64,000 bases of DNA, taken from the IMG/VR virus record IMGVR_UViG_3300000301_000012, positions 1 to 64,000 of that record. One strand, 5' to 3'. Positions 4,617-64,000 of this stretch are shown piece after piece (the stretch's first letter is position 1; every line of letters begins with the position of its first letter). The notes below the pieces were generated by a model. That model ran no database searches and was not told where the DNA came from. It saw only the letters and a list, made by a program, of their open reading frames with translations. This DNA comes from a virus. The position numbers and the translations under genes are program-made.

Positions 4617-5054
4617 TTAGTTCTCTACGTTAAGCTTCATATTCTCATAAATATCTTTAAACTTCATATCCTCATAAATATCTACAATATTATGAGAATC
4701 TTCCTCTCGTACCCTAGCTACTCGTTCACGTTCCTCCTGATCCATTTCCACTTCCATCAAATTGAAAAAATGTTCCATAAATCGGTGAAGAGCCTTAGTC
4801 CTATCCTTCTCATACTTCAAGGAAGCTCGACGAGCCGCCATAATACGACCGATTTCCTCGTTAAAAACATCACCAGGCGCGCACTTAGCAACACCAACAT
4901 ACTTCTTCTTTAGCTTCAATACTTCGTACAATACAACAGGATTAAAGAGGTAAGGATTTTTAGCTCTCTTCAAAACAAGCTTATATACATCCTTATCACA
5001 ATTGTCAATAGTTGCCTTAACGATACCTGCTTCCTTGTCTACAAAGTACTTCAT
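4617..5054 (-). CDS. hypothetical protein embedded in the tRNA array
   Basis: 145-aa ORF with AAAGGAGTTTAAATT before the ATG and a TAA stop. Confidence 0.6.
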   Translation of the reverse strand: MKYFVDKEAGIVKATIDNCDKDVYKLVLKRAKNPYLFNPVVLYEVLKLKKKYVGVAKCAPGDVFNEEIGRIMAARRASLKYEKDRTKALHRFMEHFFNLMEVEMDQEERERVARVREEDSHNIVDIYEDMKFKDIYENMKLNVEN

Positions 5055-5139
5055 AATTTAAACTCCTTTTCTTTTTTTAAGTTTGTATAACTATTATACT
5101 TATTTTTTGTAGAACTTTCAAATTTTTTCTATCAGATGC

Positions 5140-5222
5140 TGGTGCGTTTGACAGGACTCGAACCTGCAAGCCGAAGCAACAGAACCTAAATCTGTCGAGT
5201 TTACCAATTTCTCCACAAACGC
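5140..5222 (-). tRNA. tRNA-Leu(UAG)
   Basis: Acceptor GCGTTTG/CAAACGC. Anticodon stem ACAGA/TCTGT with loop UUUAGGU. Long variable arm TGCTTCGGCT, T-loop TTCGAGT, A-CCA. Confidence 0.85.
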
Positions 5223-5564
5223 ATATTAAGTGCCTAGCTACCTCGTAAAACTAGGCGGGCTAGTGCTTCTCACCCGTAGGCATTACCCTTACCTTATCGG
5301 TTTACATCCACACTATATCACCACTATTATTTAATGGGTAATTCGCAGCGAGGTTTTTAACGATAATCTTATATTTTCTGGACAACATAAAATTGCGCTA
5401 TTTATTCTTCCAAATTAGCCCTAAAAAGTTTCATCTTAATATGCTTGTTAGGAATCTGCGCCCGTTTTGTTATTCATAGCTTTACTTTTAGTTATAAGTT
5501 CCTAGGTTTTATAACTAAAAGTTACCAATATTCCGAATCCCACGGAATAATATAAGATTATCTT
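5223..5564 (-). ncRNA. unassigned structured non-coding block (about 340 nt)
   Basis: No ORF on either strand. A 13-bp long-range pairing joins GATAATCTTATAT (5549-5561) to ATATAAGATTATC (5362-5374). A 13-bp hairpin spans about 5483-5525. Further pairings are ATTACCC/GGGTAAT and GCCTAG/CTAGGC. Confidence 0.4.
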
Positions 5565-5641
5565 TGGTAGTCACTAACAGACTCGAACTGTTGACCTCCT
5601 CGGTGTAAACGAGGCGTTCTAACCAACTGAACTAAGCGACT
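5565..5641 (-). tRNA. tRNA-Val(UAC)
   Basis: Acceptor AGTCGCT/AGTGACT. Anticodon stem CCTCG/CGAGG with loop UUUACAC. T-arm AACAG-TTCGAGT-CTGTT, A-CCA. Confidence 0.85.
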
Positions 5642-5647
5642 ATATAA

Positions 5648-5676
5648 GTGACTAATTATTTTAATTTGCTAGTCAC
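5648..5676 (-). ncRNA. short hairpin spacer with conserved box remnant (family member)
   Basis: Stem GTGACTA/TAGTCAC with a 15-nt loop that begins GCAAATT on the minus strand. Confidence 0.3.
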
Positions 5677-5746
5677 CAACAAATAGATGTTTGGGACACA
5701 CACAGTGGAGGGCACGGTCAGATTCGAACTGACGACACGCTGGTTA

Positions 5747-6415
5747 TGGCGTCAACTATGAGATTTGAACTCATATCTTTTCCCATTCTATATCAGAGTA
5801 TTTTTGAATATCTTTTCTCTTTGACGGTAAATTATACTTTTTACACCATTTACGAACAGCATTATCTGAAACTTTAAACATTTTTCCAATTGTAGTAAAC
5901 GGAGTATTTCTTATTAAGGATTTTAATTCTTCTCTACTTATTATATTTTTTTCTCTTAAACATTTCTAACATAACCCTGTTTTATTATTTGCAATTTCTT
6001 TTTTACAAGAAGAACAATAATATTGATGTTTTTTTGGATTTTTTAATTCTTCTGCTATATTTTTGTCATAAATTCTTTTTTGCTCAAGATATTCTTTAGT
6101 ATAAAAACCATCATGAACTTCTCTATGACAATTTGCACATAATAAAATACATTTCTAAATTTCTTGTAAATCTTCTTCCAAATTATGACAAATTCCTTTA
6201 GAAGAAATTCCGTACTCTTTTTCTTCAGGTCTTATATGATGAAATTCTAATGCACTTTTGCTTCTATTATAGCCACAAATATTACATTTATCACCACAAA
6301 CCCTTATTAAATTTTCTTTTCTTCTTCGTCTAAAATCAGAAGTTGCCTAACTACTCATAAATTTCACCATCAAACAATAGAATACAAAGAAAAATATTTC
6401 TTATACTAAGCTGAC
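5747..6415 (-). mobile_element. tRNA-shaped shell carrying an HNH endonuclease gene, nested in an anticodon loop
   Basis: The 5' end reads GTCAGCT-TA-GTAT-AAGAA-ATAT and the 3' end ATGAG-TTCAAAT-CTCAT-AGTTGAC-G-CCA. The acceptor stem has 7 bp including one G-U. The ORF replaces the anticodon arm. None of the ACGG...CCGTGCYAA group I core seen in the other three introns is present. Confidence 0.5.
5771..6358 (-). CDS. HNH homing endonuclease (3 in-frame TAG)
   Basis: ATG at 6358 and TGA at 5773-5771. The translation has CGDKCNICGY...EFHHI...CANCHREVH. TAG falls in the context GLC-TAG-KC. Not in the ORF track because TAG breaks it. Confidence 0.8.
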
Positions 6416-6451
6416 ACAGCCAGCTGCTCTGACCAACTGAGCTACGCACCC

Positions 6452-6977
6452 ATATAATGCCCTGGTTGCCAATCCTTCTCTGGTACTCAGACCTCTGGAG
6501 CGGCCGGGCCAGCCGCAAGAGTTTCTTTAATAAGGGAAACTACATAAAGACCTCCCCATCTTTCGTTAGGGACACGCTGAGGTTTAAGACCTCCCCCGTC
6601 TGTCGTTAGGGGTCACGCCGAGATTTTCAGGCACGAGGTACTCAGTACACACCCCGCTATTACGAGCGCCCGATGATGGACGCACTTAGTTTTTTCTCCG
6701 CAGAGAGGATATACTTTAACCCGAACTAGTTCTAGGCCTTTTTACTTCTTTACGCACATAAAAGACCACATAAACAACGCGCCATTTTACGAATTATTTC
6801 CACAGTTTGGGAGCCATACAAAAATAGTAACGAGGGCTTCGTCAGAAAGTTCTTATGCGACAAGAACTTACAATGAACGCTTTGAGTTTTTTCCTCGGAG
6901 TAAACCATCAACTAAATTTCTCGTATACAGAAACTTAATCTATTTTACAATCCTAGAAAAACGTTCCAAAGATTTAA
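6452..6977 (-). ncRNA. large structured non-coding RNA candidate (about 525 nt; ROOL/GOLLD-like context, class unconfirmed)
   Basis: No ORF, and visibly GC-richer than its flanks. It has many hairpins (AAGTTCTT/AAGAACTT, GCGGC/GCCGC, GTTTC/GAAAC). The module CCC(C)TAACGANAGAYGGGG(G)AGGTCTT is duplicated. It sits flush between two tRNA-type ends. Confidence 0.55.
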
Positions 6978-7509
6978 TGGTGGGCCATCTTGGTATCGAA
7001 CCAAGCGAGTCACAATGACAGCGGCTTTTGGAGATAGAATTTAGATTTGAACTAAAAAGTTGCAAGTATTAAATCCTTGGTTATTGGAATTTGGGATAGT
7101 TCTTAAAACTATTCTTGAAAGATTTCCAGATTTACGAATCTCTTCAACGGGAATTACAAAAAGATTCTTCATATCATCAGCACAAAATAATAAATCTACT
7201 GGATGATTTAGTAAATTATCATAAACTTGTCCCTTTGTTCCGCCTTTGTTTACCAATGAAATCTCCTTATTTTTACTAGCTGTAAATTTACATTGTACTG
7301 TTTGAAAAATATCATCTTTTTCTACAACTAAATCATACCATTGTGTATCATTAATTGGTAAACTAACAGTATAACCATTGGAACCAAAATATGCGATAGC
7401 AAGACTTAATCCCGCTCTTCCTTTATCCCTATTATTTAATAATTGCATAACCCTCCTCCATTAGGATTCTACCACAGGCCGCCCCGTCTCCTTAACGGAA
7501 TACTGACCC
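6978..7509 (-). mobile_element. tRNA-shaped shell carrying a PD-(D/E)XK endonuclease gene (free-standing)
   Basis: The 5' end reads GGGTCAG-TA-TTCC-GTTAA-GGAG and the 3' end CTTGG-TTCGATA-CCAAG-ATGGCCC-A-CCA, with 6 of 7 acceptor pairs. The architecture matches 5747-6415. Confidence 0.4.
7041..7448 (-). CDS. PD-(D/E)XK homing-endonuclease-like protein (I-Ssp6803I-like family)
   Basis: 135 aa with GGAGGAGGG before the ATG. The translation KGRAGLSLAIAYFGSNGYTVSLPINDTQWYDLVVEKDDIFQTVQCKF matches the D...(D/E)xK pattern of the small PD-(D/E)XK intron endonucleases. Confidence 0.7.
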   Translation of the reverse strand: MQLLNNRDKGRAGLSLAIAYFGSNGYTVSLPINDTQWYDLVVEKDDIFQTVQCKFTASKNKEISLVNKGGTKGQVYDNLLNHPVDLLFCADDMKNLFVIPVEEIRKSGNLSRIVLRTIPNSNNQGFNTCNFLVQI

Positions 7510-7596
7510 ATATAATGGCGGTTGGAGCTTATTTTAATTCGACGTCCGCCAACTCGAATGAAGGTTGAGTTATTGTCATTATACCTACAATATGAC

Positions 7597-7672
7597 TGGT
7601 CACGCCATCGGGAATCGAACCCGAATTACGGGATTGAAAGCCCCGTTTCCTTACCGTTTAGAAGATGGCGCG
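7597..7672 (-). tRNA. tRNA-Glu(UUC)
   Basis: Acceptor CGCGCCA/TGGCGTG. Anticodon stem CGGGG/TCCCG with loop CUUUCAA. T-arm TCGGG-TTCGATT-CCCGA, A-CCA. Confidence 0.85.
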
Positions 7673-7906
7673 ATAGAAATAGGAGTGACCGCCCTCCTAT
7701 TGGGTCTGTTGTTCCACTCCTATCGGTAGTTTTTAAATGGTGTTACCGACACCGATTTGCGTCAGGAGGAGTATCCTCCCCAATGGAATTTGTTGATACA
7801 ATCATAGAACCATCTCCTTCCAATAAACGCTTTTTAAGACTTAGCGTGGTACGCATTATTAAGAGGCGTGCTAAGTTCATTTCTACAAGAGGAACTTCCC
7901 ACTTGG
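7673..7906 (-). ncRNA. unassigned structured spacer immediately 3' of the suppressor tRNA
   Basis: No credible ORF. Hairpins are AGGAG-TGACCGCC-CTCCT, GGAGGA-GTA-TCCTCC, CGGTA...TACCG and CTTAGC...GCTAAG enclosing GCGT-GGT-ACGC. Confidence 0.35.
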
Positions 7907-7982
7907 TGGCAGCGGTTCTCAGAATCGAACTGAGTCCATCGCTTTTAGAGAGCGAGGCGCTAAACCGTTACGCTAAACCGCA
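7907..7982 (-). tRNA. amber suppressor tRNA(CUA), Gln-like identity features
   Basis: Anticodon stem TCGCT/AGCGA with loop CUCUAAA; the anticodon is complementary to plus-strand tag at 7946-7948. D-arm GCGT-AACGGTTTA-GCGC and T-arm CTCAG-TTCGATT-CTGAG. Acceptor TGCGGTT/AACCGCT has a U1-U72 mismatch, G2-C71 and discriminator G. CCA is followed by a second CCA. Confidence 0.85.
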
Positions 7983-8014
7983 TCATTCAAGTTTTTGAAT
8001 GGAACTTTAACCAT

Positions 8015-8089
8015 TGGGTGCAGAGGAAGGATTCGAACCTTCGATCTCCGACTCATGAGGACGGTGAGATACCACTTCTCTACTCTGCA
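8015..8089 (-). tRNA. tRNA-Met(CAU) (elongator Met or Ile2; not resolvable by eye)
   Basis: Acceptor TGCAGAG/CTCTGCA, loop CUCAUGA, T-arm GAAGG-TTCGAAT-CCTTC, C-CCA. The anticodon stem has one U-U mismatch. Confidence 0.75.
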
Positions 8090-8097
8090 ATATAGAC

Positions 8098-8162
8098 AAG
8101 GCACATAAGTAACAATAATTTCTCACCCAAGAAAAGCTGTTATTAATTGCTGTTTGCGCCTT
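8098..8162 (-). ncRNA. acceptor-stem-like hairpin spacer with conserved box (family member)
   Basis: Terminal stem AAGGCGCA/TGTGCCTT (one G-U pair), followed by the box AACAGCAATT. Confidence 0.35.
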
Positions 8163-8214
8163 TCTTTATCTTACATAAATATTATATAAGATTTTTAAAA
8201 ACTTTTCAAATTTC

Positions 8215-8337
8215 AAGATACCGTTAGAATAATTATTGCCTTACCATTTAGGCGATTTCTAAAATGATTAGAAAGTAAGAATCGAACTTACAATAGATAA
8301 TTTCCAAAAAATAATTATTGGTTGCTGTAGGTATCTT
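8215..8337 (-). ncRNA. circularly permuted, capped tRNA-like RNA on a basal stem (YrlA/Y-RNA-like architecture)
   Basis: The minus strand reads: basal AAGATACC, box TACAGCAA, then ATTAT, CTATT, T-arm GTAAG-TTCGATT-CTTAC. The acceptor TTTCTAA-TCATT-TTAGAAA is closed by a loop. Then come TC, D-arm GCCT-AAATGGTA-AGGC, A, ATAAT and basal GGTATCTT. Confidence 0.55.
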
Positions 8338-8341
8338 TAAC

Positions 8342-8415
8342 TGGCAGAAAACGTCGGTGCTGCCCCGCTATTCCACCTCCCAAAGATGGCGTGTTACTGT
8401 TACACTACGTTCTCT
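8342..8415 (-). tRNA. tRNA-Pro(UGG)
   Basis: Acceptor (A)GAGAAC(G)/(C)GTTTTC(T). Anticodon stem CCATC/GGTGG with loop UUUGGGA. The T-arm is weak and non-canonical (loop GGCAGCA). It abuts tRNA-Ala. Confidence 0.7.
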
Positions 8416-8491
8416 TGGTGGAACTAAGGGGATTCGAACCCCTAACCCTCTGCGTGCAAAGCAGATGCGCTTCCAATTACGCTATAGCCCC
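8416..8491 (-). tRNA. tRNA-Ala(UGC)
   Basis: Acceptor GGGGCTA/TAGTTCC carries the G3-U70 alanine identity pair. Loop UUUGCAC, T-arm AGGGG-TTCGAAT-CCCCT, A-CCA. Confidence 0.9.
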
Positions 8492-8640
8492 ACGTTTAGC
8501 GGCCGTTGCCATCCGCCATTCGTATCCTCTTATGCAGCAACGAACCGAGGAATTATAGGTTTTTATTTGTAAGCTACCTACAAACTTACTGGTAGGAGTG
8601 GCGGGACTCGAACCCGCACGACCACAAGCCAGCTGATTTT

Positions 8641-9387
8641 CATACTACTCTATGTCACCATAGCCGCATTACTGCGTTGTAGTCTGGACTATGTCTTCAC
8701 CATATCTCTCAACTTAGGTGGTTGGTATATAGTCTCTACACATTTATTTGGTGCAGTTCTTTCCACGATAGGAATCTGTTAAAGCGTGACAATTTGGACA
8801 TAATAATTCATAATTTTCTATACTATTATTATGTCTATTGCCATCTTTATGATGTAACTCTAATGGAATTGGATTGCCAAGCCATTCGGTTAAACCGCAA
8901 TGTTCACACTTATGTTCTTTATACCCTTCTTCTAACAACTTTATTCTAACTTTGTTTGATTGAATATCTTTGCTATTTTCAAGATATTGAACTAATGTCA
9001 TTTTTTCTTTAACTTTAGAATAACCTTTTCCACTTTGATTTCCATCATACTTTAAGCCTAATCTCTCTAATACGCTATTAATAGTTTTAGGATTACATCC
9101 TAATTCTCTTGCCATATAAGCTTTAGATCTGTTCTCAGAAATCCATCGTTCAATTTCTGCCTTACGCTCTAAAATATCTGTTCTCATAAGTATCACTCCT
9201 TTTTTTTCTTTCTACTTATAAGTAGAAAAGGAACACACTTATTACAGAATTTTGATGCGTAATCCAAAATTTAGCACGGCGTTCTGTGTTTGCCTTCGCC
9301 GTTTAGCCAACTTCTACTTTCACAATTTCTTGTGAAGCACTCTCTATCCAAAAGATAGCACTTCTTTTTAGGAAGTGAAACACATTA
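8641..9387 (-). mobile_element. group I intron with HNH homing-endonuclease ORF
   Basis: The 5' splice site follows U and the 3' splice site follows G. The core element GGCTAAACGGCG...ACGCCGTGCTAAATT resembles the P4-P6/P7 region of phage group I introns such as T4 td. The insertion site is the classical tRNA-Leu(UAA) position. Confidence 0.7.
8744..9187 (-). CDS. HNH homing endonuclease (intron-encoded)
   Basis: The translation has CEHCGL...LELHHKDGNRHNNSIENYELLCPNCHA. AGGAGTG lies 6 nt before the ATG at 9187. Stop is TAA. Confidence 0.85.
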   Translation of the reverse strand: MRTDILERKAEIERWISENRSKAYMARELGCNPKTINSVLERLGLKYDGNQSGKGYSKVKEKMTLVQYLENSKDIQSNKVRIKLLEEGYKEHKCEHCGLTEWLGNPIPLELHHKDGNRHNNSIENYELLCPNCHALTDSYRGKNCTK

Positions 9388-9587
9388 AAGTCAGCAGCGT
9401 ATACCGATTTCGCCACACTCCCATAGCGTCCCTCTCGTTTCATAGCTCATTGAGCCGATTTTGCAGGCTTGGGACTGCCGATGGCACGATTAACGCTAAA
9501 TGCCGAACTGAGAGAGTGAAAGGAAAGGAAAAATCTCTCTCATTCAACATTAATATTATATCAAAATTTTTAGTTTATTTCAAATTT

Positions 9588-9722
9588 TTAATACTCATCA
9601 TCTAAAAAGTAGAATGGATCATCCTGCTCTTCATTAATCCAGAAAGCGCCGCCTGAAAAGCCATATTCGCCAAAAAAATCATCATACTGAATATCATCGA
9701 ATCCATCAAAGTAATCTCCCAT
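9588..9722 (-). CDS. small acidic hypothetical protein (44 aa)
   Basis: AAAGGAGC lies before the ATG at 9722 and the stop is TAA. The translation begins MGDYFDGFDDIQYDDFFGEYG. Confidence 0.35.
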   Translation of the reverse strand: MGDYFDGFDDIQYDDFFGEYGFSGGAFWINEEQDDPFYFLDDEY

Positions 9723-9768
9723 TTTTAAGCTCCTTTCTTAACTTTCTGTATATATTATACAGAATTTT

Positions 9769-9906
9769 TTATTCATTTTCAAATTTTTTCTTGTGTTTTT
9801 CTTTTCGAGAATATTTCTTTTTATTAGGTATAATCTTCGTAGAAGGATTGAGGCCACTCCAATCCTTACGAATCTTTTTAAAAGTTTCGTAAGTTTTATT
9901 CTCCAT
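9769..9906 (-). CDS. small basic hypothetical protein (45 aa)
   Basis: GGAAGGTGAG lies before the ATG at 9906 and the stop is TAA. Confidence 0.35.
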   Translation of the reverse strand: MENKTYETFKKIRKDWSGLNPSTKIIPNKKKYSRKEKHKKKFENE

Positions 9907-9951
9907 TTCTCTCACCTTCCTTTAATATTATATATAAAAATTAAAGAAAAC

Positions 9952-10269
9952 TCAAATTTTTTCCATCTCTTTTTTATCTTGAGTAATTGCTTCCGCACGT
10001 GTATTAAGAAGTTTAATGAACTGACTTACTTCTTTTGACTTCTTAAAGATGGCGACTGGATATTTATGACCTTTGCCGATAATTTCCGCACCCAATTCAT
10101 CGCGTGCCATACGAAGATATTGTGCATAGCTAAGACCCATTACTCGTGCAGGAATAATATTATAACTTCCTGTTGTATATTTTAAGTTGAAATTGTCAAA
10201 GTTGGCTCTAATTGTATAGTGTTCATTTTGGATAGGATACTCATCAAGATAAAAATATTCTTTTTTCAT
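9952..10269 (-). CDS. hypothetical protein
   Basis: Track ORF trimmed to the ATG that follows GGGAGGAG. Stop is TGA. Confidence 0.55.
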   Translation of the reverse strand: MKKEYFYLDEYPIQNEHYTIRANFDNFNLKYTTGSYNIIPARVMGLSYAQYLRMARDELGAEIIGKGHKYPVAIFKKSKEVSQFIKLLNTRAEAITQDKKEMEKI

Positions 10270-10574
10270 AGAGTCATCTCCTCCCAAAGTTCTTCAATTT
10301 CAATTTCTTCTTTTTGACTTAGTACACATAAGTCGCCATAATTCTCAAGTCCTCTAAACATTTTAAGAACATCTTCAAAAGGAGGAAGTTCATCACGACT
10401 AAATGTTTTCTTGGGTTTATTCTGCGCCGGCTGGTAATTTGGAATAATATACTTTTTTACTGTAGTAGGAGAGGGAGAACCACCCATAGCTCTACTAACA
10501 CCAGCATAAGTTCCAATTTTTAAATAAAGTTCATTAAGTTCAATTATTTGCTCTTGAGTAATTTTACTTGCCAT
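10266..10574 (-). CDS. hypothetical protein (possible HTH)
   Basis: Track ORF trimmed to the ATG that follows AAAGGTGAG. Stop is TGA. Confidence 0.55.
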   Translation of the reverse strand: MASKITQEQIIELNELYLKIGTYAGVSRAMGGSPSPTTVKKYIIPNYQPAQNKPKKTFSRDELPPFEDVLKMFRGLENYGDLCVLSQKEEIEIEELWEEMTL

Positions 10575-10622
10575 TTTTCTCACCTTTCAATAAATATTAT
10601 ATAAAAAATTTAAAAGAAAATC

Positions 10623-10648
10623 AAAAAAGGAGCTTCCGAAGAAGCTCC
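10623..10648 (-). terminator. rho-independent terminator (minus strand)
   Basis: Stem GGAGCTTC-CGAA-GAAGCTCC is followed by TTTTTT on the minus strand, just after the TAA of the vWA gene. Confidence 0.7.
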
Positions 10649-10654
10649 CTTATA

Positions 10655-12130: not shown

Positions 12131-12166
12131 TTGACATTTCTCCTTTTACTCAATAAAGTAAAAGCT

Positions 12167-12277
12167 AGACGCAATAGCTCCAAAGAAGGGACTCGAACCC
12201 TTAAATACTGAATTTAACGTTCAGAGCTTTTTCCTTTTAAGCTACTTCGGAAATCTCTCGCTTCGCTGTTCGCGTCT
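12167..12277 (-). ncRNA. stem-enclosed tRNA-like RNA directly upstream of the Ro60-like gene
   Basis: Basal pairing AGACGC (12277-12272 complement) with GCGTCT (12172-12167 complement). The box-like GAACAGCG follows the 5' arm. It encloses the cloverleaf at 12178-12251. Confidence 0.45.
12178..12251 (-). tRNA. tRNA-like cloverleaf with UUA in the anticodon position and G33 (probably not a decoding tRNA)
   Basis: Acceptor TCCGAAG/CTTTGGA and D-arm GCTT-AAAAGGAAA-AAGC. Anticodon stem CTGAA/TTCAG with loop CGUUAAA. T-arm AAGGG-TTCGAGT-CCCTT, no CCA. Confidence 0.5.
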
Positions 12278-12389
12278 TAACTTTTCTGTAATTATTATCT
12301 CAAGATTTTCATTATTTTTCAAATTTTAAAAAGAAAAGAGAAAAGTTGAAACTTTTCTCCTTTTAATTATAATTATTTTTCATTTTATA

Positions 12390-12842
12390 TTAGCCAACTG
12401 TGGTACTTTCTTCAATTATTACATTGCTTTCATCAACTATTTCTTCTGTTTGTGGTAATTGAATTGCTTCAACCGTAGTTGTAGTAGGAGTAGCTACGGT
12501 AGTTGTTTCGGGAATTGTATATTCTACAGTCATATTTTCACTTTTAATCCGAATAACATCAGTTGCATTTTTAACAAGACCAATTAATTCAGATACAGCA
12601 GAACTTCCACCCATAAAAACTAGCGCTGTTAGTATCTATCCCATTATAGATACCTCTGCTATTAAACCTAGTCCAACTAAAATATCCAGTGAAAAACAAA
12701 AAGCACAAGCAAAAGAAAGAATTGCGGAAATTCCAACTGTTATATATTTACTATAAGGAACATTAACCCATAATTCTTTAAGTCTATCTATTATATACCA
12801 AATAATAACGCTCATCGCGCCAACTAAAAATAACATATCCAT
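12390..12842 (-). CDS. holin-like membrane protein (1 in-frame TAG)
   Basis: Track ORFs 12636-12842 and 12390-12614 share a frame and are joined only by TAG at 12638-12636; I checked that no TAA or TGA lies between them. The N-terminal half has two hydrophobic segments. Stop is TAA. Confidence 0.6.
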
Positions 12843-12916
12843 TTATCATTACCTCCTAATAAAAAGTCGTTAATATTATTATAATCTCTAGTAAATTTGC
12901 TTTTACTTAAAAAATA

Positions 12917-14397: not shown

Positions 14398-14399
14398 AT

Positions 14400-58000: not shown

Positions 58001-58645
58001 AGAACTTCCACTACAAGAAATAGTAACTGTATCTCCATCATAAACTGTAGAAGGAGATATTTCTATATTAGTAGGAGCTTTACTTTTTGTATAAATGGGA
58101 GTGGGGTCTGATTGCTTTGGTAAAGTTAATGTTACATTACCATTACTATCAACATTAACCCCACTGTGACTAGTTAATCCATGTGAGTCATGAAAATAAG
58201 TACTCGCATAAGGAAGAGTCATATAAGTTAAAAAACTAGATATCTTATGAGAAGTAGGAGGGGGATTACAAAATCCTGCTAAAATTGATATAGTTTTACT
58301 AGAAGTTGATGTATAAGTAAAACTATGTGTAACAGCTGGAAAATTAACCCATCCATTACCAATCTCATAAGGTCCATTTCCCCCATCTTCTCCAGAAGTA
58401 TTCTTATTATGAACCTATTTTTTAATACCATTTATTGTAATATAATCGCTTCCATATGGATTATCTCCTTTTCCATACCAAGTAGGTCCATAATTATCAT
58501 AACGTCTTACAGACATTGTTGTAGTAAAAGTCGCAGTAGTAGTAGTACCACTTGTGCTAAGCGAATATGAGCCTGCAATTTTAAAGCCCATATTTGCCGT
58601 AGCGTCATTATCTCTATACCAAACTTCAACTGAATAATTAGGCAT
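55097..58645 (-). CDS. large structural / host-recognition protein, 1182 codons (20 in-frame TAG)
   Basis: AAAGGAGTG lies before the ATG at 58645. Five track ORFs share this frame. I walked every gap: 20 TAG and no TAA or TGA until TAA at 55099-55097. Confidence 0.85.
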
Positions 58646-58658
58646 TTAATCACTCCTT

Positions 58659-61600
58659 TTACTCCTAAACATATAAATCGTATCCAATTAATTGACCATT
58701 ATCATTTCGAATAGCTCGATATTCAATTATATCTTGTAATAATAAATTTTCATTAAAATAAACATTAGTATTAAATCTTGACTAATTACGATTAAAAGTA
58801 ACTGTTGTAATATCAGTCGCAGTTGAATCAATAATATTAATACCATTATTATAATTTAAATACATCTAATAATCTAGTCCAGAAATAGTAGAAGGTAAAC
58901 CATTATTAGTAAAACCTATTCTATTTGGCTAAATAACAAGAAGATTACTAATATCTTCCGTCTAATTATAAATTAATGCTATTGGCATTATAACTGTAGA
59001 ATCATTTCTAACTGTAAAATTTGAACCTACATATAAATTTGAATTTAAAGTTAACCCCTAATCGGTTAAACTCATTCTCTAAATGCCATTATTAGTAAAA
59101 TTAATACCATAAGCAACATCTTGAATATTTAGCGCAGCATTTGTGTAATCTCCATTACTATCTTTAGCATATCCTGTTATTGTTGCTGTTTTTATTTCAG
59201 CCGCGGTTATAGTTGCATCAGTAATAATTGTACCCTAGAAATAACCGCTACCAGCGTAAAGATTTCCATAAGTATCAACTCTAAAACGAGCATTTTCAAT
59301 ATCTTCTACTGAATCACTATCTGCACCAGCCCATAATAGAATATTTCCTCGTCTATCAGCAGGAAAATTAGAATTTTTTTCCATAGCTTCTGATTCAGTG
59401 TTTATACCAGAAGAATAATTTATTCCATTCGCTATCATAGAACCCTTTAAAAGAACATTATCAGCATATAATCCATATTTGCCAGATAAACTACCGTATG
59501 TTTCTGGAATATTAGGAATCTAACCTAAAATAACTCTAGGAATAATATTTACATTTCCTTCTAAATCATAAGTTGAGGCTGATTCAATTTGAAGTTCAAA
59601 AAGAGATAAGGCATTTCCAGTAACTAAATTAGAATTTTTAGAGCTATTAATTCCAATTCCAATATCTCCTGTTTTACCAAAATCTACAAAAGGTAATCCT
59701 ATAAAATTATAATTTGTTAAATTAGAACTATTTAATAGTTCAATTTCCGCACCATCTTCTCCATTTAGCTCTCCAGTTGTATCATCAATTTCAAAAATAC
59801 CTTCAGCGAAAGCTATTTCAAACATACTTTCTGTTAAAGCATTTCCATATCCAATTTTACAGTAGTCCCCTGTTGAAAAGCCATTTCGATTTTCAATAGT
59901 AATAAAAACATTTCCATTTTCTTCTTTTCTAACAGTTTTAATTATTGAACTAGGGCGAACTATTAAAATACCACCTACAGCCTAAATATTAGAATATTCT
60001 AATACAGAAGATTTAATAGAACCTCTAGCTATAATATTATTAAAAATAGCTGAATCAGAATTTATATTCCATCCTGAATTAGTATTATAATTTGCAGATT
60101 GAATAGATTCTGCTACTCCATTTAAAATAATTCCCGTTGTTTCACTACCTAATCTTAATATTCCATCAGATGTAACTACAAAACTATTTATTAGTTCATT
60201 TAAAGAATTAATCTAATTTATTAATAAGAAAGCATTAGATGGAATTTTATTAGTTTCTTTTAATTCAGAATCTAAACTATTTACACTACTTGGATTAAAA
60301 ATCCAAGTATTATTTCCTAATCTTATATAATTTTTAATAGTTGCATAATCTCCTAAAGTAATAGTATTAGCAACTATTTCACCAGAGCTAGAAATAAAGA
60401 AACCTGAATTACTATCTGAGGTATAATTATTTATATAAATACCCTAATACTAATTTTGAATTTCTATAGTAGGATTTTCATACCAATTTGAAGTTGAAGG
60501 ATTTACTAAATTATTAAGATTTACACTTATATATTCTTCTTCCTACAAAATATAATAATTTTTATTTATATTTAATGTTGTATCCTAAGATAAAGTATAA
60601 TCTTCACCATTAAATTCATAGTAATTACTTAAAGATGGATTAATTAAAGTAGAAAAATCTACTTGAATATATTCTTCTTCAAATAAAGTATAGTATTTTT
60701 TTTCAAAATCAATTGAAGTATCTTTAGAAAGAATATAATTTGAAGTATCAATTTGTTCAATAATGTCTCTACCATCTATAATAATATTACCTACCAATAA
60801 CTAGCCATCAATATTTAAATTTCCTAAAGTTCCATTAACAGCATTTACTGTACCATTAAAAGTACCATCAGTAGCATTTACTGTACCATTGAAGGTACCA
60901 TTATTAGCATAAATAGTCCCTTCTATAATTAAATCTCCATTATCATCAGCATATAAAACTCTTTCTTCATTATTATTTAAGATAGATAATCCACCATTCT
61001 AAATTGTAAGTCCATCAATATTAAATTCTAATTTAGTATTTTGAATTGCTGCATTTATACCTGCCGCGTTTAATTCAAAAATTGCCATATCCTCTGTAGA
61101 ACCAAATCTAATTTCAATAGGAGAAACTACTAAAATTTGCTCAGTATTAGGCTAAAACGCTTTAAATCTAATTACAGTTTCCTATGTTCTAATAATATCT
61201 CTAATTTTTTGCCATTTCTTGTCTTCAATTTCACTTGTCGCAGAACAATAATCCTATATATTAAAAATATATCTATTCTCATTTTCAATAGTATCTTGAA
61301 CTATATAATACCCTATATAATCATTCATACTCAACCATTCATTTTCATTATTGTCATAAACTTCAAAAATGGCATCATACTAATTAAAACCCATATTTAA
61401 ACTATTATTATCATAGTATAAACTAAGTGATATTATTAACTAAGAAGGAGAAAATATTGTATTTATCTCCTAGGTTTCAGAATTAATTTCCTTAAATTTT
61501 AATATTCTTTCTTGATTAAAATTTACGATGTATCTTCTTTGAGAAATCGCAGAACCATCCTCGCCCTTAACTTTATTCCAAGTATAAGCAGATTTATCAG

Positions 61601-64000
61601 TCGGCGCAGTCTCAGAGGGACCAGTATAAATTCCCATATAAATATTAGGAGTATCACTAAAATCAGTACCATCAGGATAAGCAGAATATTTAATATGAAC
61701 ATAAGTCTATTCTCCAGATTCTCCTGGCTTACCTTGCGCGCCGTCTGCAACAGTGTTAATAGTTAAGTAAGAAGTATAATTTTCTCCATCTGTTCCACTT
61801 ACAACTAAGCGAATAAAATATGTTCCGTTAGTATTAAATTTATCTTTATGAGCTTCATAATTAAATATATACTAACTTCCAGATCCAGATAAGATTTCCC
61901 ACTAATCAAAATCATTACTACCAGACCAAGTATAAGCAGTATCTCCTGCTACTTGAACATTACTTAAACGAGCAGTTAAAGTCAAAGACTCTGGACTTGC
62001 CACTCCATCTTTAAGTTTAAAAAATTCTCCTTCTAGCGATTGAATTGTAACATTCTTTCCAATCTACCCAATATTATTAATATCTTCGATTGTCATATTA
62101 CCAATTTTACCGCCAGTAGCATAGATAGTACCAGTTAATTCTACTCTATCAGCTTTTAATAAACCATTATCATATATAGCAACAGTTTCAATATTTTCCT
62201 GGTCTTTTACAGAGAAAATTTTAGAATAATCTTTTAAGCTATCATCAGTTGTAATTTCTCCATCTTCAGTATAGCTTTCAATTACACCAATCTAAGCTCT
62301 ATAACGATAAGTGTCTGATATATCTGGACCAATAAATAATTTCTACTTTAAGAATAATTGACCATCATCATCAGTAACCATTACTGGCGCGCCGTCACTA
62401 TCTGAAAATCTTATACCAAATAAATCTTGACCTAATCGACCAATCTTTATTCTTTCAGTTCCTTGTCCATCAATAACCTAAATATCATTTTCAGAATCAA
62501 TAGTTATATATCCCTATTCATCTGGCGCAACATTTCCATAATTACTCTTCAAGAAGAAGCCATCCCAAGTAAAGCCAAAATCAGCATTATTTCTAATTTC
62601 TTCTTCGCTTTCTGGAGTAAAATCCTAATTTCCTCGCATACCATAGATACCATACTGGTCAAAACGAACAAATTCTCCAAAATTAAAAAATTCTGCTTCT
62701 CCTTGGTCATTTCTCGTAAATCTATAGGCATTGATACCTCTTTCATCCCATCTAAAGGCACTAAAAGAACCACTTAAAATATGAATTCGAGAAGCATCAA
62801 TTTGTCCAGAAGTTATATGATTAGCATTTATACCATTACCAGTAATACCAGCATTCCAAGTATCTCCACCATTTGTGCTTAAAAAGATACCACCACTAAC
62901 CAATCTAACAATTTCATTTGGTTTAGATAAACTAGTAATAATCATACCATTATCGTTCCAAACAACACTTTGGTCCTTAGCATTACTAATGATTAAAGAG
63001 TTATTTGCAAAGCTATTCTAAAGAGTTTGAACTTTTATTTCTCCATTTGTATTTATAATATCGGATACCTTTCCATACTCACCACTTTTATACTCAATAG
63101 ATTGAGTAGTTGCAGTAATACGTTGAAATAAATCTTCAAACTGAGTTTTATAATTCTAAACAGTAATTTTATTTGATTCTGGAGAATCAAGACTATAGCT
63201 AATCTCAGAAATAACGATTTCTTCTTTATATGGAGTTTTCATACCATTTTTAACTACCCAGCCAAAAAATTCAGTATCTTCCATATAAGTAATATCGCCT
63301 AAGGCAAAATGATAATTTTCAAAACCAGGCATTTCACTTATTTCTAAAACATTTATTGTATAACTTATCTAAGGCGAGGCAGAAGTATATAACAAAGCTT
63401 CAGCATCAAGATAATATAAATTATCATCAATATAATCTTCGGAAATCCAAGAACCTTCCTAAATAAAACGAGAATATTTTTTATAAAATATTTTATTTAA
63501 TTCATTTTTCTATTCTGCAATACTATCAAGATAATTTTCAATATTTTCTAATTTTCCTTGATATTCTTGTAAATTAGCTTCAGCCTAAGACCATAAAGCA
63601 TTAAATCTATCAGTCTATCCAGATAAAGTTTTTATAGCAGTTATATATTCTCTAACCTTATCATTTACTAACCATTTTGCAGCTTCTGAATTATTATTAG
63701 TAAAATCTTCATAAGCAAAACCAGTATAAGCCTTTAGCTCATTTTTATTAGTAGTTAAACTTGCTTCGGCTTCTTGTGCTGCTACTTCATAAGTTTGTAC
63801 TTGAGCTTCAAGATTTGTAATGGTATTTTCAATTTCAGACTATTGTTCAATATAAGAATCTCTATCTTTATTTAGATTTCTTAATTTAACATAATATCCT
63901 AAATATCCACCAGCATCTAGGTATAAATCATTACTGACCTAAGTGTAATCTAGTAAGCCCTGTTGAATATAATGTTTAAAATTATATAGGAAATTTTCTT
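58659..64000 (-). CDS. giant tail-associated host-specificity protein (Tal/PblB-like), at least 1780 codons, start beyond window (41 in-frame TAG)
   Basis: The frame ending at TAA 58661-58659 has no TAA or TGA up to the window edge (every codon outside the track ORFs walked). The segment GGIFLSTNGGDTWNAGITGNGINANHITSGQIDASRI is typical of siphovirus tail-tip/antireceptor proteins. Confidence 0.8.

What the first reader, a model, noticed from the sequence alone, without database searches (positions are those of the whole stretch)
4877..62393. Massive excess of GC-only palindromes (GCGCGC, GGCGCGCC, CCGCGCGCGG, CGCGGCCGCG) in an AT-rich genome
I located 27 GCGCGC hexamers. They start at 4877, 11622, 13692, 15434, 21024, 22863, 24609, 25954, 29209, 29574, 30215, 31002, 32850, 34289, 35637, 35729, 36502, 38118, 39976, 42028, 45076, 46726, 47153, 48431, 51135, 61736 and 62387. 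There are six full GGCGCGCC octamers (11621, 22862, 25953, 35636, 51134, 62386). The 10-mers CCGCGCGCGG (13690, 42026) and CGCGGCCGCG (24516, 32074) each occur twice. If G+C is near 30 percent (my visual estimate), the expectation is about 0.7 hexamers and about 0.02 octamers in 64 kb. The motifs occur in different codon phases. For example, GGC-GCG-CCG at 25953 contrasts with atG-GCG-CGC-Cca at 35636. They usually recruit otherwise rare GCG and CGC codons for Ala and Arg. This points to selection at the DNA level. Nineteen of the 27 lie in the plus-strand replication module (24.6-51.2 kb). Phages normally purge short palindromes, so enrichment suggests a function. Candidates include a recognition site for a phage enzyme, a methylation or modification target, a replication or recombination signal, or Z-DNA-prone alternating CG tracts.
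Basis: seen in the sequence. Interest (0 to 1): 0.85.

Follow-up and report, generated by a model that had tools for sequence, protein, structure and literature searches.

The report
Cooperative G/C clustering, not palindrome sites
The AT-rich phage really does carry about ten times too many GCGCGC words, but they are the most visible product of a clade-wide, DNA-level tendency to fill any position flanked by G/C pairs with another G/C, not conserved recognition sites.

Summary
The counts are right. There are 28 GCGCGC at 27 places and 6 GGCGCGCC in 64 kb at 31.7% G+C. The excess survives nulls that keep protein sequence and codon usage (2.4±1.5 expected) and also codon-junction dinucleotides (6.1±1.9).

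It is not a site-specific signal. Positions turn over between relatives (2 of 10 shared with the closest one). Non-palindromic GC-only words are enriched as much. A shuffle that keeps where G/C sits already predicts 20.6 of the 28.

The underlying rule: a synonymous position is G/C 36-44% of the time when both flanks are G/C-G/C, against 17-24% otherwise. The rule holds in all codon phases, in TAG-free and TAG-rich genes, and in non-coding DNA. It is present in this clade and one related clade. It is absent from a third clade and from SPbeta, T4 and phage K.

In closely related pairs, W→S changes in that context are about 2× as frequent and S→W about 0.5×. This fits a symmetric fixation bias (scaled coefficient ~1.3). 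I infer GC-biased mismatch correction in GC contexts; weak selection for GC-only runs is the main rival. The phage is a TAG-recoded, SPbeta-like gut or rumen phage.

The parts
4876..4882 (.). GGCGCGC run (GCGCGC at 4877); the greedy ORF call puts it in 4572-5090(+), phase 2, but that ORF is doubtful (low-complexity, no family hit) and overlaps ORF 4617-5054(-)
11621..11629 (.). GGCGCGCCG run (AscI-type octamer); Arg-Arg-Ala in the Ro60-like gene 10655-12130(-)
13690..13699 (.). CCGCGCGCGG run; Pro-Arg-Ala in the glycosyltransferase gene
15434..15441 (.). GCGCGCGG run; Lys-Arg-Ala in the ligase-like gene
21024..21030 (.). GCGCGCC run; Gly-Ala-Leu in structural gene 19891-21246(-)
22862..22870 (.). 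GGCGCGCCG run (octamer); Arg-Arg-Ala in the Mtd_N tail-fibre gene
24516..24526. CGCGGCCGCGG run (contains a NotI word) in the UvrD-like helicase gene; by my reading against the ORF start it encodes Ala-Ala-Ala
24609..24617 (.). GCGCGCGGG run; Leu-Arg-Ala in the UvrD-like helicase
25953..25961 (.). GGCGCGCCG run (octamer); Gly-Ala-Pro in gyrB
29209..29214 (.). GCGCGC; Met-Arg-Ala in gyrA
29574..29580 (.). GCGCGCC; Cys-Ala-Pro in gyrA
30214..30221 (.). CGCGCGCC; Ala-Arg in gyrA
31002..31008 (.). GCGCGCG; Ser-Ala-Arg in gyrA
32074..32086 (.). CGCGGCCGCGGGC run (contains a NotI word) in gene 31811-32722
32849..32859 (.). CGCGCGCCCCG run; Ser-Arg-Ala-Pro in the Sak4-like (AAA_24) gene; W-rich in all relatives
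34289..34295 (.). GCGCGCG; Ala-Arg
35636..35644 (.). GGCGCGCCC (octamer); Met-Ala-Arg-Pro in the DnaB-like helicase; relatives encode the same Ala-Arg as GCAAGA, GCTCGT and similar
35729..35734 (.). GCGCGC; Val-Arg-Ala in the DnaB-like helicase
36500..36509 (.). GGGCGCGCGC run (two overlapping GCGCGC); Gly-Arg-Ala in the primase gene; the only widely conserved site (13 of 22 relatives)
38118..38125 (.). CGCGCGCC (GCGCGC at 38119, not 38118); Ala-Arg in the RecJ-like gene; patchy among relatives
39975..39983 (.). GGCGCGCGG; Met-Ala-Arg-Gly in the N-terminal part of dnaE; patchy among relatives
42025..42035 (.). GCCGCGCGCGG; Ala-Ala-Arg-Gly in the C-terminal part of dnaE; shared with L001 only
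45075..45081 (.). GGCGCGC; Gly-Ala-Leu in gene 44517-45677
46726..46733 (.). GCGCGCGG; Met-Arg-Ala in nrdD
47153..47159 (.). GCGCGCC; Ala-Arg in nrdD
48429..48436 (.). GGGCGCGC; Gly-Ala-Leu in the nrdG-like gene
50151..50156 (.). CGCGCG only (no GCGCGC) in the dUTPase-like gene
51134..51141 (.). GGCGCGCC (octamer); Gly-Ala-Pro in the RuvC-like gene
61736..61743 (.). GCGCGCCG; Asp-Gly-Ala in the TAG-recoded giant structural gene 58659-63998(-)
62386..62394 (.). GGCGCGCCG (octamer); Asp-Gly-Ala-Pro in the same giant structural gene
1..64000 (.). Genome-wide background: 260 windows of six consecutive G/C against 107 expected from the codon shuffle. At four-fold third positions G/C is used 36% of the time when flanked by G/C on both sides (two bases each) and 10-23% otherwise.

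Best explanation
GCGCGC is not a site in its own right. It is the commonest outcome of a genome-wide, DNA-level rule in this phage clade: a degenerate position lying between two G/C bases on each side (written SS_SS) tends to become G or C, and C/G alternation is preferred over GG or CC runs.

Ala is GCN, Arg is CGN and Gly is GGN. Ala-Arg, Arg-Ala and Gly-Ala-Pro/Leu strings therefore collapse into GCGCGC, GGCGCGCC and similar words once two or three free positions are filled with the alternating G/C. Three free positions at about 2.5x each give the 10-20x excess.

Shown: the rule itself; its presence in coding and non-coding DNA; its restriction to certain clades; site turnover; and a symmetric shift of substitution fluxes, with W->S up about 2x and S->W down about 2x in the SS_SS context.

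Inferred: the cause is GC-biased correction of G.T and A.C mismatches when the mismatch sits among G:C neighbours. This would be a molecular drive resembling very-short-patch repair or biased gene conversion, acting during phage replication or recombination in these hosts. GG/CC-run avoidance and lineage-specific restriction avoidance then decide which GC-only words survive.

I put about 0.85 on the first level (a by-product of cooperative G/C clustering, not a recognised palindrome) and about 0.4 on the repair-drive mechanism.
For: 1. A shuffle that preserves the S/W pattern predicts 20.6±2.4 GCGCGC in the window and 224 of 309 in the clade pool.
2. All GC-only hexamers together are 2.8x over the codon shuffle in the clade (4054 against 1435). 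CGGCCG is 6.4x, GCGGCC 4.8x and CGCGCC 4.7x; CCCCCC is 0.1x and GGGCCC 0.18x.
3. P(G/C at a four-fold third position) is 0.36 (window), 0.44 (clade g1) and 0.38 (clade g2) in the SS_SS context, against 0.08-0.25 elsewhere. It is flat at 0.18 in clade g3 and in SPbeta, T4 and phage K. The window odds ratio is 3.0, P=3e-26.
4. Runs of six G/C have observed/expected 2.4 in the window and 1.8-4.0 in relatives. SPbeta gives 0.80, T4 0.86 and g3 0.4-0.9; phage K gives 1.59 on small counts, 22 against 13.8.
5. Non-coding DNA shows the same effect: 0.46 against 0.30 in g1 (P=1e-17) and 0.49 against 0.25 in g2. It is absent in g3 (0.28 against 0.31) and in the controls.
6. The relative effect is the same in TAG-free and TAG-rich genes. 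Third-position G/C autocorrelation is seen only at lags 1-2. There is no regular spacing.
7. Sites turn over: 2 of 10 are shared with L001, and the same Ala-Arg codon pairs are GCGCGC in scattered lineages.
8. In close pairs the number of S/W differences in the SS_SS context is 29 (g1, >=95% identity) and 80 (g1, 83-93%). A protection-only model predicts 13.2 and 41.6 (P=1e-4 and 8e-8). A creation-only model predicts 50.8 and 157.8 (P=7e-4 and 6e-12). A symmetric fixation bias with S about 1.3 predicts 24.0 and 75.3.
9. Only transition neighbours of GCGC and GCGCGC fall below expectation: ACGC/GCGT 0.80, GCAC/GTGC 0.89 and ACGCGC/GCGCGT 0.72.
Against: - No repair enzyme has been identified. 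No Vsr, T:G glycosylase or C5-methyltransferase was found in the 64 kb, and the rest of the genome was not available.
- Weak selection for GC-only runs gives exactly the same symmetric flux signature, so cannot separate drive from selection.
- After conditioning on the S/W pattern, a residual 1.36x excess of GCGCGC remains (z=3.1; a plain Poisson test gives only P=0.07).
- Lineages differ in which words they carry. L001 has 17 GCGCGC but no CGGCCG or GCGGCC, and g2 shows the reverse. Word-specific forces therefore also exist.
- The flux estimates assume stationarity and rest on 29-80 events.
- The gene calls are my own ORF-based calls with TAG read as sense.
Confidence: 0.5

Rival explanations
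1. Weak direct selection for uninterrupted GC-only runs of five or more base pairs ('GC clamps') as DNA-level elements in a 32% G+C genome. Possible roles include limiting duplex breathing or unwinding, stabilising annealing or priming, or evading a host system that senses AT-rich DNA. Selection would take the cheapest route, one synonymous change where the protein already supplies G/C on both sides.
For: - The symmetric flux shift fits a scaled selection coefficient of about 1.3.
- The effect needs both flanks.
- It is present in non-coding DNA.
- GC-only cores such as GGCGGCCGC are held at orthologous Gly-Gly-Arg positions across many lineages while the flanking synonymous sites vary.
- Site 36502 is conserved in 13 of 22 relatives.
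Against: - Runs are not evenly spaced. Within-gene permutation gives coefficient-of-variation, maximum-gap and variance ratios indistinguishable from the observed values.
- No function or reader protein is known.
- A sister clade of equal G+C content and gene order lacks the effect.
- Most sites turn over.
Confidence: 0.25
2. One reading: GCGCGC/GGCGCGCC (BssHII/AscI-type palindromes) are recognition sites for a phage or host enzyme (methyltransferase, nuclease, or replication or recombination protein) and are selected as such.
For: - GCGCGC is the most enriched hexamer in the window (11x) and in L001 (17 against 0.8).
- A residual 1.36x remains after conditioning on G/C positions.
- The flanks are enriched for G on the 5' side and C on the 3' side.
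Against: - There is no positional conservation.
- There is no hexamer-level signal beyond the pentamers (Markov-4 gives 28.6).
- Non-palindromic GC-only words are equally enriched and some palindromes are depleted.
- The generic SS_SS rule explains most of the count.
- No cytosine methyltransferase or cognate nuclease is present in the window.
- Related lineages keep the clustering but with other words.
Confidence: 0.1
3. Host mimicry or a translational context effect: the phage copies a codon-pair or oligonucleotide preference of its host, or selects host-preferred G/C-ending codons for consecutive Gly/Ala/Arg/Pro codons.
For: - Some Acutalibacteraceae and Ruminococcus MAG loci show a weaker version: odds ratio 2.3-2.8, six-G/C runs 1.1-1.4x, together with GATC avoidance.
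- The phage's GC-rich left-end gene has 82% identical homologues in a prophage of an Acutalibacter/Neglecta-like Firmicute.
Against: - The effect is present in non-coding DNA, in all three phases, and equally in early TAG-free and late TAG-rich genes.
- The Acutalibacter/Neglectibacter sample is flat (0.65-0.68) with GCGCGC at 0.63x and CGCG at 0.64x.
- The bacterial effect is much weaker than in the phages.
- The host is not actually known.
Confidence: 0.12
4. Relic of a GC-richer ancestor, or purely slower decay: G/C bases embedded in GC-rich neighbours deaminate or mutate more slowly, so GC-only runs simply persist.
For: S->W change per G/C site is halved in the SS_SS context.
Against: - W->S change per A/T site is doubled in the same context, and the protection-only model is rejected (P=1e-4 and 8e-8).
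- Sharing only 2 of 10 sites between the two closest genomes would require an implausibly site-dense ancestor.
- A physical protection effect should also appear in T4, SPbeta and clade g3, and it does not.
Confidence: 0.05

Closest known systems
Over-representation of a methylase site through very-short-patch (Vsr) repair, e.g. CCWGG in E. coli (my own knowledge: Bhagwat & McClelland 1992; Gelfand & Koonin 1997)
   Same: A short GC-rich word is over-represented through a repair bias that turns T:G mismatches into C:G. The transition neighbours are slightly depleted, and the effect is DNA-level and independent of reading frame.
   Different: Here the effect is 6-20x, not about 1.3x. It applies to a whole class of GC-only words, not one site. 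No Vsr or C5-methyltransferase gene was found in the window. GTGCGC/GCGCAC is not depleted (1.88x).
GC-biased gene conversion (my own knowledge: described in eukaryotes and proposed for bacteria)
   Same: A symmetric fixation bias favouring W->S over S->W, acting in coding and non-coding DNA alike and indistinguishable from weak selection.
   Different: Classical gBGC raises G+C regionally with recombination rate. Here the genome stays at 32% G+C and the bias is switched on only when both flanks are G/C-G/C, with no long-range autocorrelation.
Codon-pair and codon-context bias (Tats et al. 2008, PMC2585594, found; the paper was listed but not read in detail)
   Same: Synonymous choice depends on the first bases of the next codon; junction GC/CG is preferred.
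   Different: The effect is also present in non-coding DNA, depends on two bases on each side whatever the amino acid, and is absent in related phages and in T4 and SPbeta. It is therefore not a general translational context rule.
Restriction-site avoidance in phages and bacteria (e.g. PMC4687349 and PMC10359461, listed)
   Same: Palindromic 4-6-mers depart strongly from expectation. The same genome shows classical avoidance of GATC (17 against 112), and relatives show lineage-specific loss of GCGC/CGCG or GGCC-type words.
   Different: The sign is opposite (enrichment), and the enriched set is not defined by palindromy.
Chi sites, DNA uptake sequences and other over-represented functional oligomers
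   Same: High density, turnover of positions, and presence inside genes in any phase.
   Different: Those are single specific, oriented oligomers. Here many words are enriched, the top ones are symmetric, and GCGCGTG (the Lactococcus Chi, from my own knowledge) is not the enriched form: 13 against 2 for its complement in 646 kb.
SPbeta-like phages and TAG-recoded gut phages (stop-codon recoding literature listed)
   Same: The replication module has SPbeta gene order: Sak4-like, DnaB-like helicase, primase, RecJ-like, DnaE/YorL at 41% identity. Amber is read through in late genes with a CTA-anticodon tRNA.
   Different: SPbeta itself shows no G/C clustering (six-G/C runs 0.80x, no GCGCGC). The recoding papers I retrieved were not searched for this compositional feature (only PMC10607447 was opened, for other terms), and I know of no description of it.

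Membership tests
Recognition site of a restriction-modification or other sequence-specific enzyme (BssHII/AscI type) | Departure from expectation specific to the exact word and its length | tested here: not met
   Markov-4 predicts 28.6 of 28. Non-palindromic GC-only hexamers are enriched 3-5x. The S/W-preserving null gives 20.6.
Recognition site of a restriction-modification or other sequence-specific enzyme (BssHII/AscI type) | Cognate methyltransferase or nuclease gene present | tested here: inconclusive
   No C5-methyltransferase, Vsr or type II nuclease among the ORFs scanned. The only hit is an NPPF amino-methyltransferase at 38712-39248. Only 64 kb of a roughly 110-170 kb genome was available.
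Recognition site of a restriction-modification or other sequence-specific enzyme (BssHII/AscI type) | Sites modified or cleaved in vivo | not testable with these tools
   Needs methylation-aware sequencing or digestion of virion DNA.
Conserved cis-acting sites (origin, packaging signal, operator arrays) | Conservation at orthologous positions while neighbouring synonymous sites diverge | tested here: not met
   2 of 10 aligned sites are shared with L001 and 0-2 of 6-8 with more distant relatives. Only 36502 is widely kept.
Dispersed repeat or mobile mini-element | Shared flanking sequence beyond the core | tested here: not met
   Flanks are unrelated. Base composition returns close to background within about 4 bases and is only slightly raised out to 8.
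Chi-like or uptake-sequence-like over-represented oligomer | One specific oriented oligomer with strand bias | tested here: not met
   Many words are enriched. The top words are self-complementary. Coding-strand asymmetries are modest (141 against 89) and explained by Gly GGC.
VSP-repair-type drive | Depletion of the T:G-derived neighbours of the enriched word | tested here: inconclusive
   ACGC/GCGT 0.80, GCAC/GTGC 0.89 and ACGCGC/GCGCGT 0.72, but GCGCAC/GTGCGC 1.88.
Fixation bias (biased gene conversion, biased repair or weak selection) | W->S flux raised and S->W flux lowered by reciprocal factors in the favoured context | tested here: met
   Roughly 2x (1.7-2.7x) and 0.5x in g1 close and mid pairs. 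The symmetric model predicts 24.0 and 75.3 against 29 and 80 observed; the one-sided models are rejected.
Fixation bias (biased gene conversion, biased repair or weak selection) | Acts irrespective of coding status and expression class | tested here: met
   Non-coding 0.46 against 0.30. TAG-free and TAG-rich genes both show 2.2x.
Translational codon-pair bias | Confined to reading frames and tied to codon or tRNA identity | tested here: not met
   Present in non-coding DNA. It depends on the G/C status of the flanks across Ala, Gly, Arg and Pro codons alike.
Z-DNA-prone alternating CG tracts | Strictly alternating purine-pyrimidine runs long enough to flip | tested here: not met
   The longest alternating runs are 8 bases (3 cases). 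Non-alternating CGGCCG and GCGGCC are equally enriched. Whether 6-8 bp could flip in vivo is not testable here.
Amber-recoded (TAG read as sense; the amino acid was not determined here) SPbeta-like phage | ORFs restored when TAG is read through, a suppressor tRNA, and an SPbeta-type replication module | tested here: met
   Coverage by long ORFs rises from 0.53 to 0.81. A CTA-anticodon tRNA lies at 7907-7982. Gene order matches yorG-yorL with 41% identity to YorL.

The most novel reading that the evidence does not exclude
These TAG-recoded SPbeta-like phages, and perhaps their Oscillospirales hosts, carry a so-far undescribed system that converts G.T or A.C mismatches, or A/T pairs, flanked by G:C pairs into G:C. 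Alternatively, GC-only runs such as GCGCGC and GCGGCCGC are directly selected DNA signals, for example self-marks or barriers read by a phage or host factor. Either way, a strong sequence-context-dependent fixation force would be shaping whole phage genomes. It would be distinct from restriction avoidance, Chi, VSP repair and classical gBGC.
Probability: 0.3. Interest if true: 0.75.

Novelty: new variant of a known kind. Interest (0 to 1): 0.45.

Why it matters
If the cause is a repair or gene-conversion bias, this would be a clean and strong case of context-dependent molecular drive in a virus, with sister clades of equal G+C that lack it as natural controls. It would also warn that large oligonucleotide excesses need not mark binding sites.

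If the cause is selection, it points to an unknown DNA-level requirement for GC-only runs in AT-rich phages of GC-richer Firmicutes.

In practice, these phage genomes should be cut unusually often by rare-cutting GC-only enzymes (BssHII, AscI, NotI) for their base composition. K-mer-based host prediction for this clade may also be distorted.

Tried and rejected
- **Megablast to known phages:** no match.
- **Literature search for GCGCGC in phages:** nothing relevant.
- **Dispersed repeat element:** rejected because the flanks are unrelated.
- **Regular spacing of GC runs:** not found.
- **Long-range G+C mosaicism within genes:** rejected, since autocorrelation appears only at lags 1-2.
- **Effect confined to early genes:** rejected once normalised. 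Raw use of GCGCGC opportunities does differ, 22 of 76 against 6 of 63, P=0.005.
- **Vsr-like nuclease at 23342-23713** (EVDGEYH motif): PHROG matches show a homing-endonuclease domain and there was no structural-sequence match.
- **PD-(D/E)XK ORF 7041-7448:** it belongs to Pfam family PDDEXK_5, which I recall as the I-Ssp6803I homing-endonuclease family, so not Vsr.
- **Methyltransferase 38712-39248:** an amino-methyltransferase present in only two relatives, so it does not co-vary with the effect.
- **Link to TAG recoding:** could not be tested, because the relatives' loci are mostly TAG-free replication modules.
- **Next-nucleotide or proofreading context effect:** considered and dropped on reasoning. 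It would change both mutation directions alike and so would not shift the equilibrium.
- **Avoidance of SSWSS palindromes** (GCWGC, CCWGG, etc.) or of Shine-Dalgarno-like words: these do not account for the strongest contexts, GGN|GC, CGN|GC and GCN|CG.
- **phAss-1 group of recoded phages:** 44% G+C, so a different group.
- **Rfam scan:** only tRNAs.

Full report
**1. The observation**

An exact search of the 64,000-base window (31.7% G+C) finds 28 overlapping GCGCGC at 27 places, 15 CGCGCG, 6 GGCGCGCC, and two each of CCGCGCGCGG and CGCGGCCGCG.

| Null model | Expected GCGCGC |
|---|---|
| iid | 1.0 |
| Markov-1 | 1.1 |
| Markov-3 | 13.6 |
| Markov-4 | 28.6 |
| Synonymous-codon shuffle within genes (1000 replicates) | 2.41±1.50, max 8 |
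| The same, also fixing codon-junction dinucleotides | 6.09±1.94, max 12 |

The Markov results show that the signal is already carried by the pentamers GCGCG and CGCGC. For the shuffles I called genes as non-overlapping ORFs with TAG read as sense (see section 8) and shuffled synonymous codons within each gene. GGCGCGCC is expected at 0.23 and 0.39 under the two shuffles, against 6 observed. All 28 hexamers lie in ORFs, in phases 0, 1 and 2 (7, 10 and 11 sites). About 14-28% of all positions where the protein sequence permits the word actually carry it, against about 1% expected. The excess is real, large and not a codon-usage artefact.

**2. What kind of thing it is not**

The flanks of the 27 places are unrelated, so this is not a repeat element. 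I fetched 62 related loci around the DnaE gene from IMG/VR.
- Relatives with at least 55% DnaE identity, plus L034, L035 and L056, carry 1.4-8.4 GCGCGC per 10 kb (L048, only 4 kb long, has none). I call this clade g1.
- A second group has none or one: L044, L058, L040, L043, L037, L054 and others at 38-40% identity. I call it g2.
- A third group also has none or one: L033, L038, L047, L052, L032 and L030 at 45-49% identity. I call it g3.

In nucleotide alignments, only 2 of 10 aligned window sites are GCGCGC in the closest relative L001 (about 72% nucleotide identity), and 2 of L001's 11 aligned sites are GCGCGC in the window. Elsewhere the same Ala-Arg or Arg-Ala codon pairs read GCAAGA, GCTCGT, GCACGA and so on, with GCGCGC appearing in scattered lineages. 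Only the site at 36502 is widely conserved. Density is maintained while positions turn over.

**3. It is not specific to the palindrome**

I pooled 35 non-redundant g1 sequences, the window plus 34 loci (646 kb).

| GC-only hexamer class (each with its reverse complement) | Observed / codon-shuffle expected |
|---|---|
| All GC-only hexamers together | 2.8x (4054 / 1435) |
| GCGCGC | 6.6x |
| CGGCCG | 6.4x |
| CGCGCG | 5.9x |
| GCGGCC | 4.8x |
| CGCGCC | 4.7x |
| CGGCGC | 4.4x |
| CCGCGC | 4.2x |
| GGGCCC | 0.18x |
| CCCGGG | 0.14x |
| CCCCCC | 0.1x |

Pooled counts are phylogenetically non-independent. For example, GCGGCCGC sits at a handful of orthologous Gly-Gly-Arg (GGC GGC CGC) positions in many relatives.

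A shuffle that exchanges synonymous codons only within the same G/C-versus-A/T pattern fixes where G/C bases sit. It predicts 20.6±2.4 GCGCGC in the window and 224 of 309 in the pool. About three quarters of the excess is therefore clustering of G/C. The remaining 1.36x reflects a preference for C/G alternation over GG and CC runs.

**4. The underlying rule**

At four-fold degenerate third positions I tabulated the frequency of G or C by context, where SS_SS means the two preceding and the two following bases are all G/C.

| Group | SS_SS context | Other contexts |
|---|---|---|
| Window | 0.36 | 0.10-0.23 |
| g1 | 0.44 | 0.16-0.25 |
| g2 | 0.38 | 0.08-0.20 |
| g3 | 0.18 | 0.15-0.25 |
| SPbeta, T4, phage K | 0.18 | 0.10-0.20 |

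The window odds ratio is 3.0 (P=3e-26). The base chosen is the one that alternates. GGN before GC becomes GGC in 51% of cases, CGN before GC becomes CGC in 51%, and GCN before CG or CC becomes GCG in 48-49%.

Runs of six G/C have observed/expected 2.4 in the window and 1.8-4.0 in g1 and g2 loci. SPbeta gives 0.80, T4 0.86 and g3 0.4-0.9; phage K gives 1.59 on small counts (22 against 13.8). The effect is strictly local: third-position G/C autocorrelation is seen only at lags 1-2. It shows no regular spacing. Its relative size is the same in TAG-free (early) and TAG-rich (late) genes, 2.2x in both. The concentration of GCGCGC in the replication module (opportunity use 22 of 76 against 6 of 63, P=0.005) therefore reflects baseline composition, not a module-specific function.

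The effect also appears in non-coding segments. In g1 the frequency is 0.46 against 0.30 (P=1e-17) and in g2 0.49 against 0.25. In g3 it is 0.28 against 0.31 and in the control phages 0.28 against 0.32. It is therefore a DNA-level property and not a codon or tRNA effect.

The size of the GCGCGC excess follows from this rule. The word spans two or three free positions, namely third positions plus the C/A choice at Arg first positions. Each is favoured about 2.5x.

**5. Dynamics**

I took independent pairs of related loci and restricted the analysis to four-fold sites whose flanks are identical in both members. I then counted sites where one member has G/C and the other A/T. Relative to other contexts, S->W differences per G/C site in SS_SS are about half (0.062 against 0.10-0.11 in close g1 pairs; 0.22 against 0.42-0.46 in mid-distance pairs). 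W->S differences per A/T site are about double (0.065 against 0.024-0.037; 0.197 against 0.092-0.113).

| Model | Predicted, g1 close pairs | Predicted, g1 mid pairs | P |
|---|---|---|---|
| Protection only (slower decay) | 13.2 | 41.6 | 1e-4, 8e-8 |
| Creation only | 50.8 | 157.8 | 7e-4, 6e-12 |
| Symmetric fixation bias, scaled coefficient ~1.3 | 24.0 | 75.3 | fits |
| Observed | 29 | 80 | |

The g2 mid-distance pairs behave the same way. In the g2 close pairs (16 events) protection-only is rejected, creation-only is not (20.4 predicted, P=0.20), and the symmetric model fits only marginally (9.1 predicted, P=0.05). The analysis assumes stationarity and the counts are modest. It nevertheless excludes a relic of a GC-rich ancestor and simple protection from deamination. 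It cannot separate weak selection from biased mismatch correction, since both give this signature.

**6. Candidate agents and host**

The window is an SPbeta-like phage. Its DnaE is 41% identical to YorL, and the gene order matches yorG-yorL: Sak4-like, small ORF, DnaB-like helicase, primase, RecJ-like, DnaE. It also encodes GyrB/GyrA, NrdD/NrdG, a dUTPase-like fusion protein, a RuvC-like protein, a UvrD-like helicase, a ligase-like protein and several homing endonucleases.

No C5-methyltransferase, Vsr or mismatch glycosylase was found among the ORFs scanned. An ORF that looked Vsr-like by eye (23342-23713) matches homing-endonuclease families. In the DnaE neighbourhoods, genes shared by g1 and g2 but missing from g3 are only homing endonucleases and, in part, the dUTPase-like protein. 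Nothing there explains the effect, and whole genomes were not available.

The GC-rich left end (47-52% G+C) encodes a DUF6273 protein. It has 82-92% identical homologues, including one in a prophage of a bacterium that clusters with Acutalibacter and Neglecta (Oscillospirales). The Acutalibacter/Neglectibacter sample (709 kb, 52.6% G+C) shows no context effect (0.65-0.68), with GCGCGC at 0.63x and CGCG at 0.64x. Some other Acutalibacteraceae and Ruminococcus MAG loci show a weaker version (odds ratio 2.3-2.8, six-G/C runs 1.1-1.4x) together with GATC avoidance. A host-environment contribution therefore cannot be excluded, and the host remains unidentified.

**7. Interpretation**

I conclude with high confidence that the GCGCGC and GGCGCGCC excess is the visible tip of a cooperative, clade-specific clustering of G/C bases. 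It is driven by a fixation bias in GC contexts and is not a set of recognised palindromic sites.

As mechanism I favour GC-biased correction of G.T and A.C mismatches embedded among G:C pairs, during replication or the intense recombination typical of these phages. My reasons are that the effect is uniform across coding and non-coding DNA and across early and late genes, symmetric in both directions, shows no spacing constraint, and leaves only transition neighbours slightly depleted. This step is inference. Weak selection for GC-only runs is the main rival.

Lineage-specific differences in which words occur suggest that ordinary restriction avoidance is superimposed. L001 has many GCGCGC but no CGGCCG or GCGGCC, and g2 shows the reverse. 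The same genomes show strong and variable GATC avoidance.

**8. Novelty and limits**

I know of no description of this pattern. The nearest known phenomena are VSP-repair-driven over-representation, GC-biased gene conversion and codon-context bias, and it differs from each (see the comparisons). I rate it a new variant of a known kind, of moderate interest.

Limits of this analysis:
- The gene calls are my own.
- The pooled counts are phylogenetically non-independent.
- Only 22-kb neighbourhoods of the relatives and 64 kb of this genome were analysed.
- The host is unknown.
- No modification data exist.

Noticed in passing
window 51430-64000 (-), 16100-23300 (-), and tRNAs at 7907-7982 (-) and 12177-12251 (-): TAG is read as a sense codon in late and structural genes. 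Coverage by long ORFs rises from 0.53 to 0.81 when TAG is read through, giving ORFs of 1183 and more than 1780 codons. There are 148 in-frame TAG codons, 91 of them in the last 12.6 kb. A tRNA with anticodon CTA and another with anticodon TTA (ochre-reading) are present in or near a 15-17 gene tRNA array.
   Followed up: partly
whole window; relatives L001-L059: GATC is almost absent: 17 against 112 expected from the codon shuffle, and 186 by Markov-1. The avoidance varies among close relatives (0 to 41 per 22 kb) independently of the GC-run effect. GTGCAC is also depleted in the clade pool (5 against 43).
   Followed up: partly
window 25497-28432 and 39655-44517: gyrB and dnaE are each split into two ORFs by an inserted GIY-YIG homing-endonuclease ORF (27226-27927 and 41192-41869). 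Further HNH (5771-6373, 8744-9238), PD-(D/E)XK PDDEXK_5-family (7041-7448, inside the tRNA array; the I-Ssp6803I family as I recall it) and homing-endonuclease-like (23342-23713) ORFs are present. Whether the splits are introns, inteins or true gene fissions was not examined.
   Followed up: no
window 1-2000: The left end is 47-52% G+C, against about 31% for the rest of the window. It encodes a DUF6273 protein (436-1224) with 82-92% identical homologues in many gut metagenome contigs. One copy lies in a prophage next to a reverse transcriptase plus a large DUF6273 protein (it looks like a diversity-generating retroelement) in an Acutalibacter/Neglecta-like bacterium. This is probably a recent horizontal acquisition and a hint to the host lineage.
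   Followed up: partly
window 16120-22906 (-): Five consecutive ORFs carry an Mtd_N (major tropism determinant N-terminal) domain, four clearly and 18132-19874 only below the Pfam threshold. They are probably tail-fibre paralogues, and 17052-18026 also has a phage tail repeat. ORF 53707-54639 gave no Pfam hit; its similarity to 17052-18026 is only my reading of the two sequences.
   Followed up: no
relatives L003-L029, e.g. L004:10050, L004:13060, L004:14547: GCGGCCGC (NotI word) is held at several orthologous Gly-Gly-Arg positions (GGC GGC CGC) across many lineages while flanking synonymous sites vary. There are 76 copies against 3 expected in the pool. The window has only two, at 24517 and 32075.
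   Followed up: partly
window 10655-12130 (-) and 2022-2840 (-): A DUF2828/DUF7788 protein that PHROGs names an RNA-binding protein (by my recollection Ro60/TROVE-like), and an RlaP-family nucleotidyltransferase (RNA repair pathway), flank the tRNA array. This suggests a phage-borne RNA repair or quality-control module.
   Followed up: no
window 38712-39248 (+): A small (178 aa) methyltransferase-like protein with an NPPF motif (PHROG DNA methyltransferase). Among the relatives sampled it is present only in L034 and L056. Its target is unknown and it cannot methylate GCGCGC at adenine.
   Followed up: partly
loci L134, L135, L137, L138, L139 (Acutalibacteraceae and Ruminococcus MAGs): Some Oscillospirales chromosomal loci show a weaker form of the same GC-context effect (odds ratio 2.3-2.8). 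L135, L137 and L139 also avoid GATC; L134 and L138 do not. Acutalibacter/Neglectibacter loci show no context effect.
   Followed up: partly
window 3995-4055 (-) and 8346-8414 (-): Rfam reports two further tRNA-like matches (40.9 and 29.6 bits) that ARAGORN did not call.
   Followed up: no
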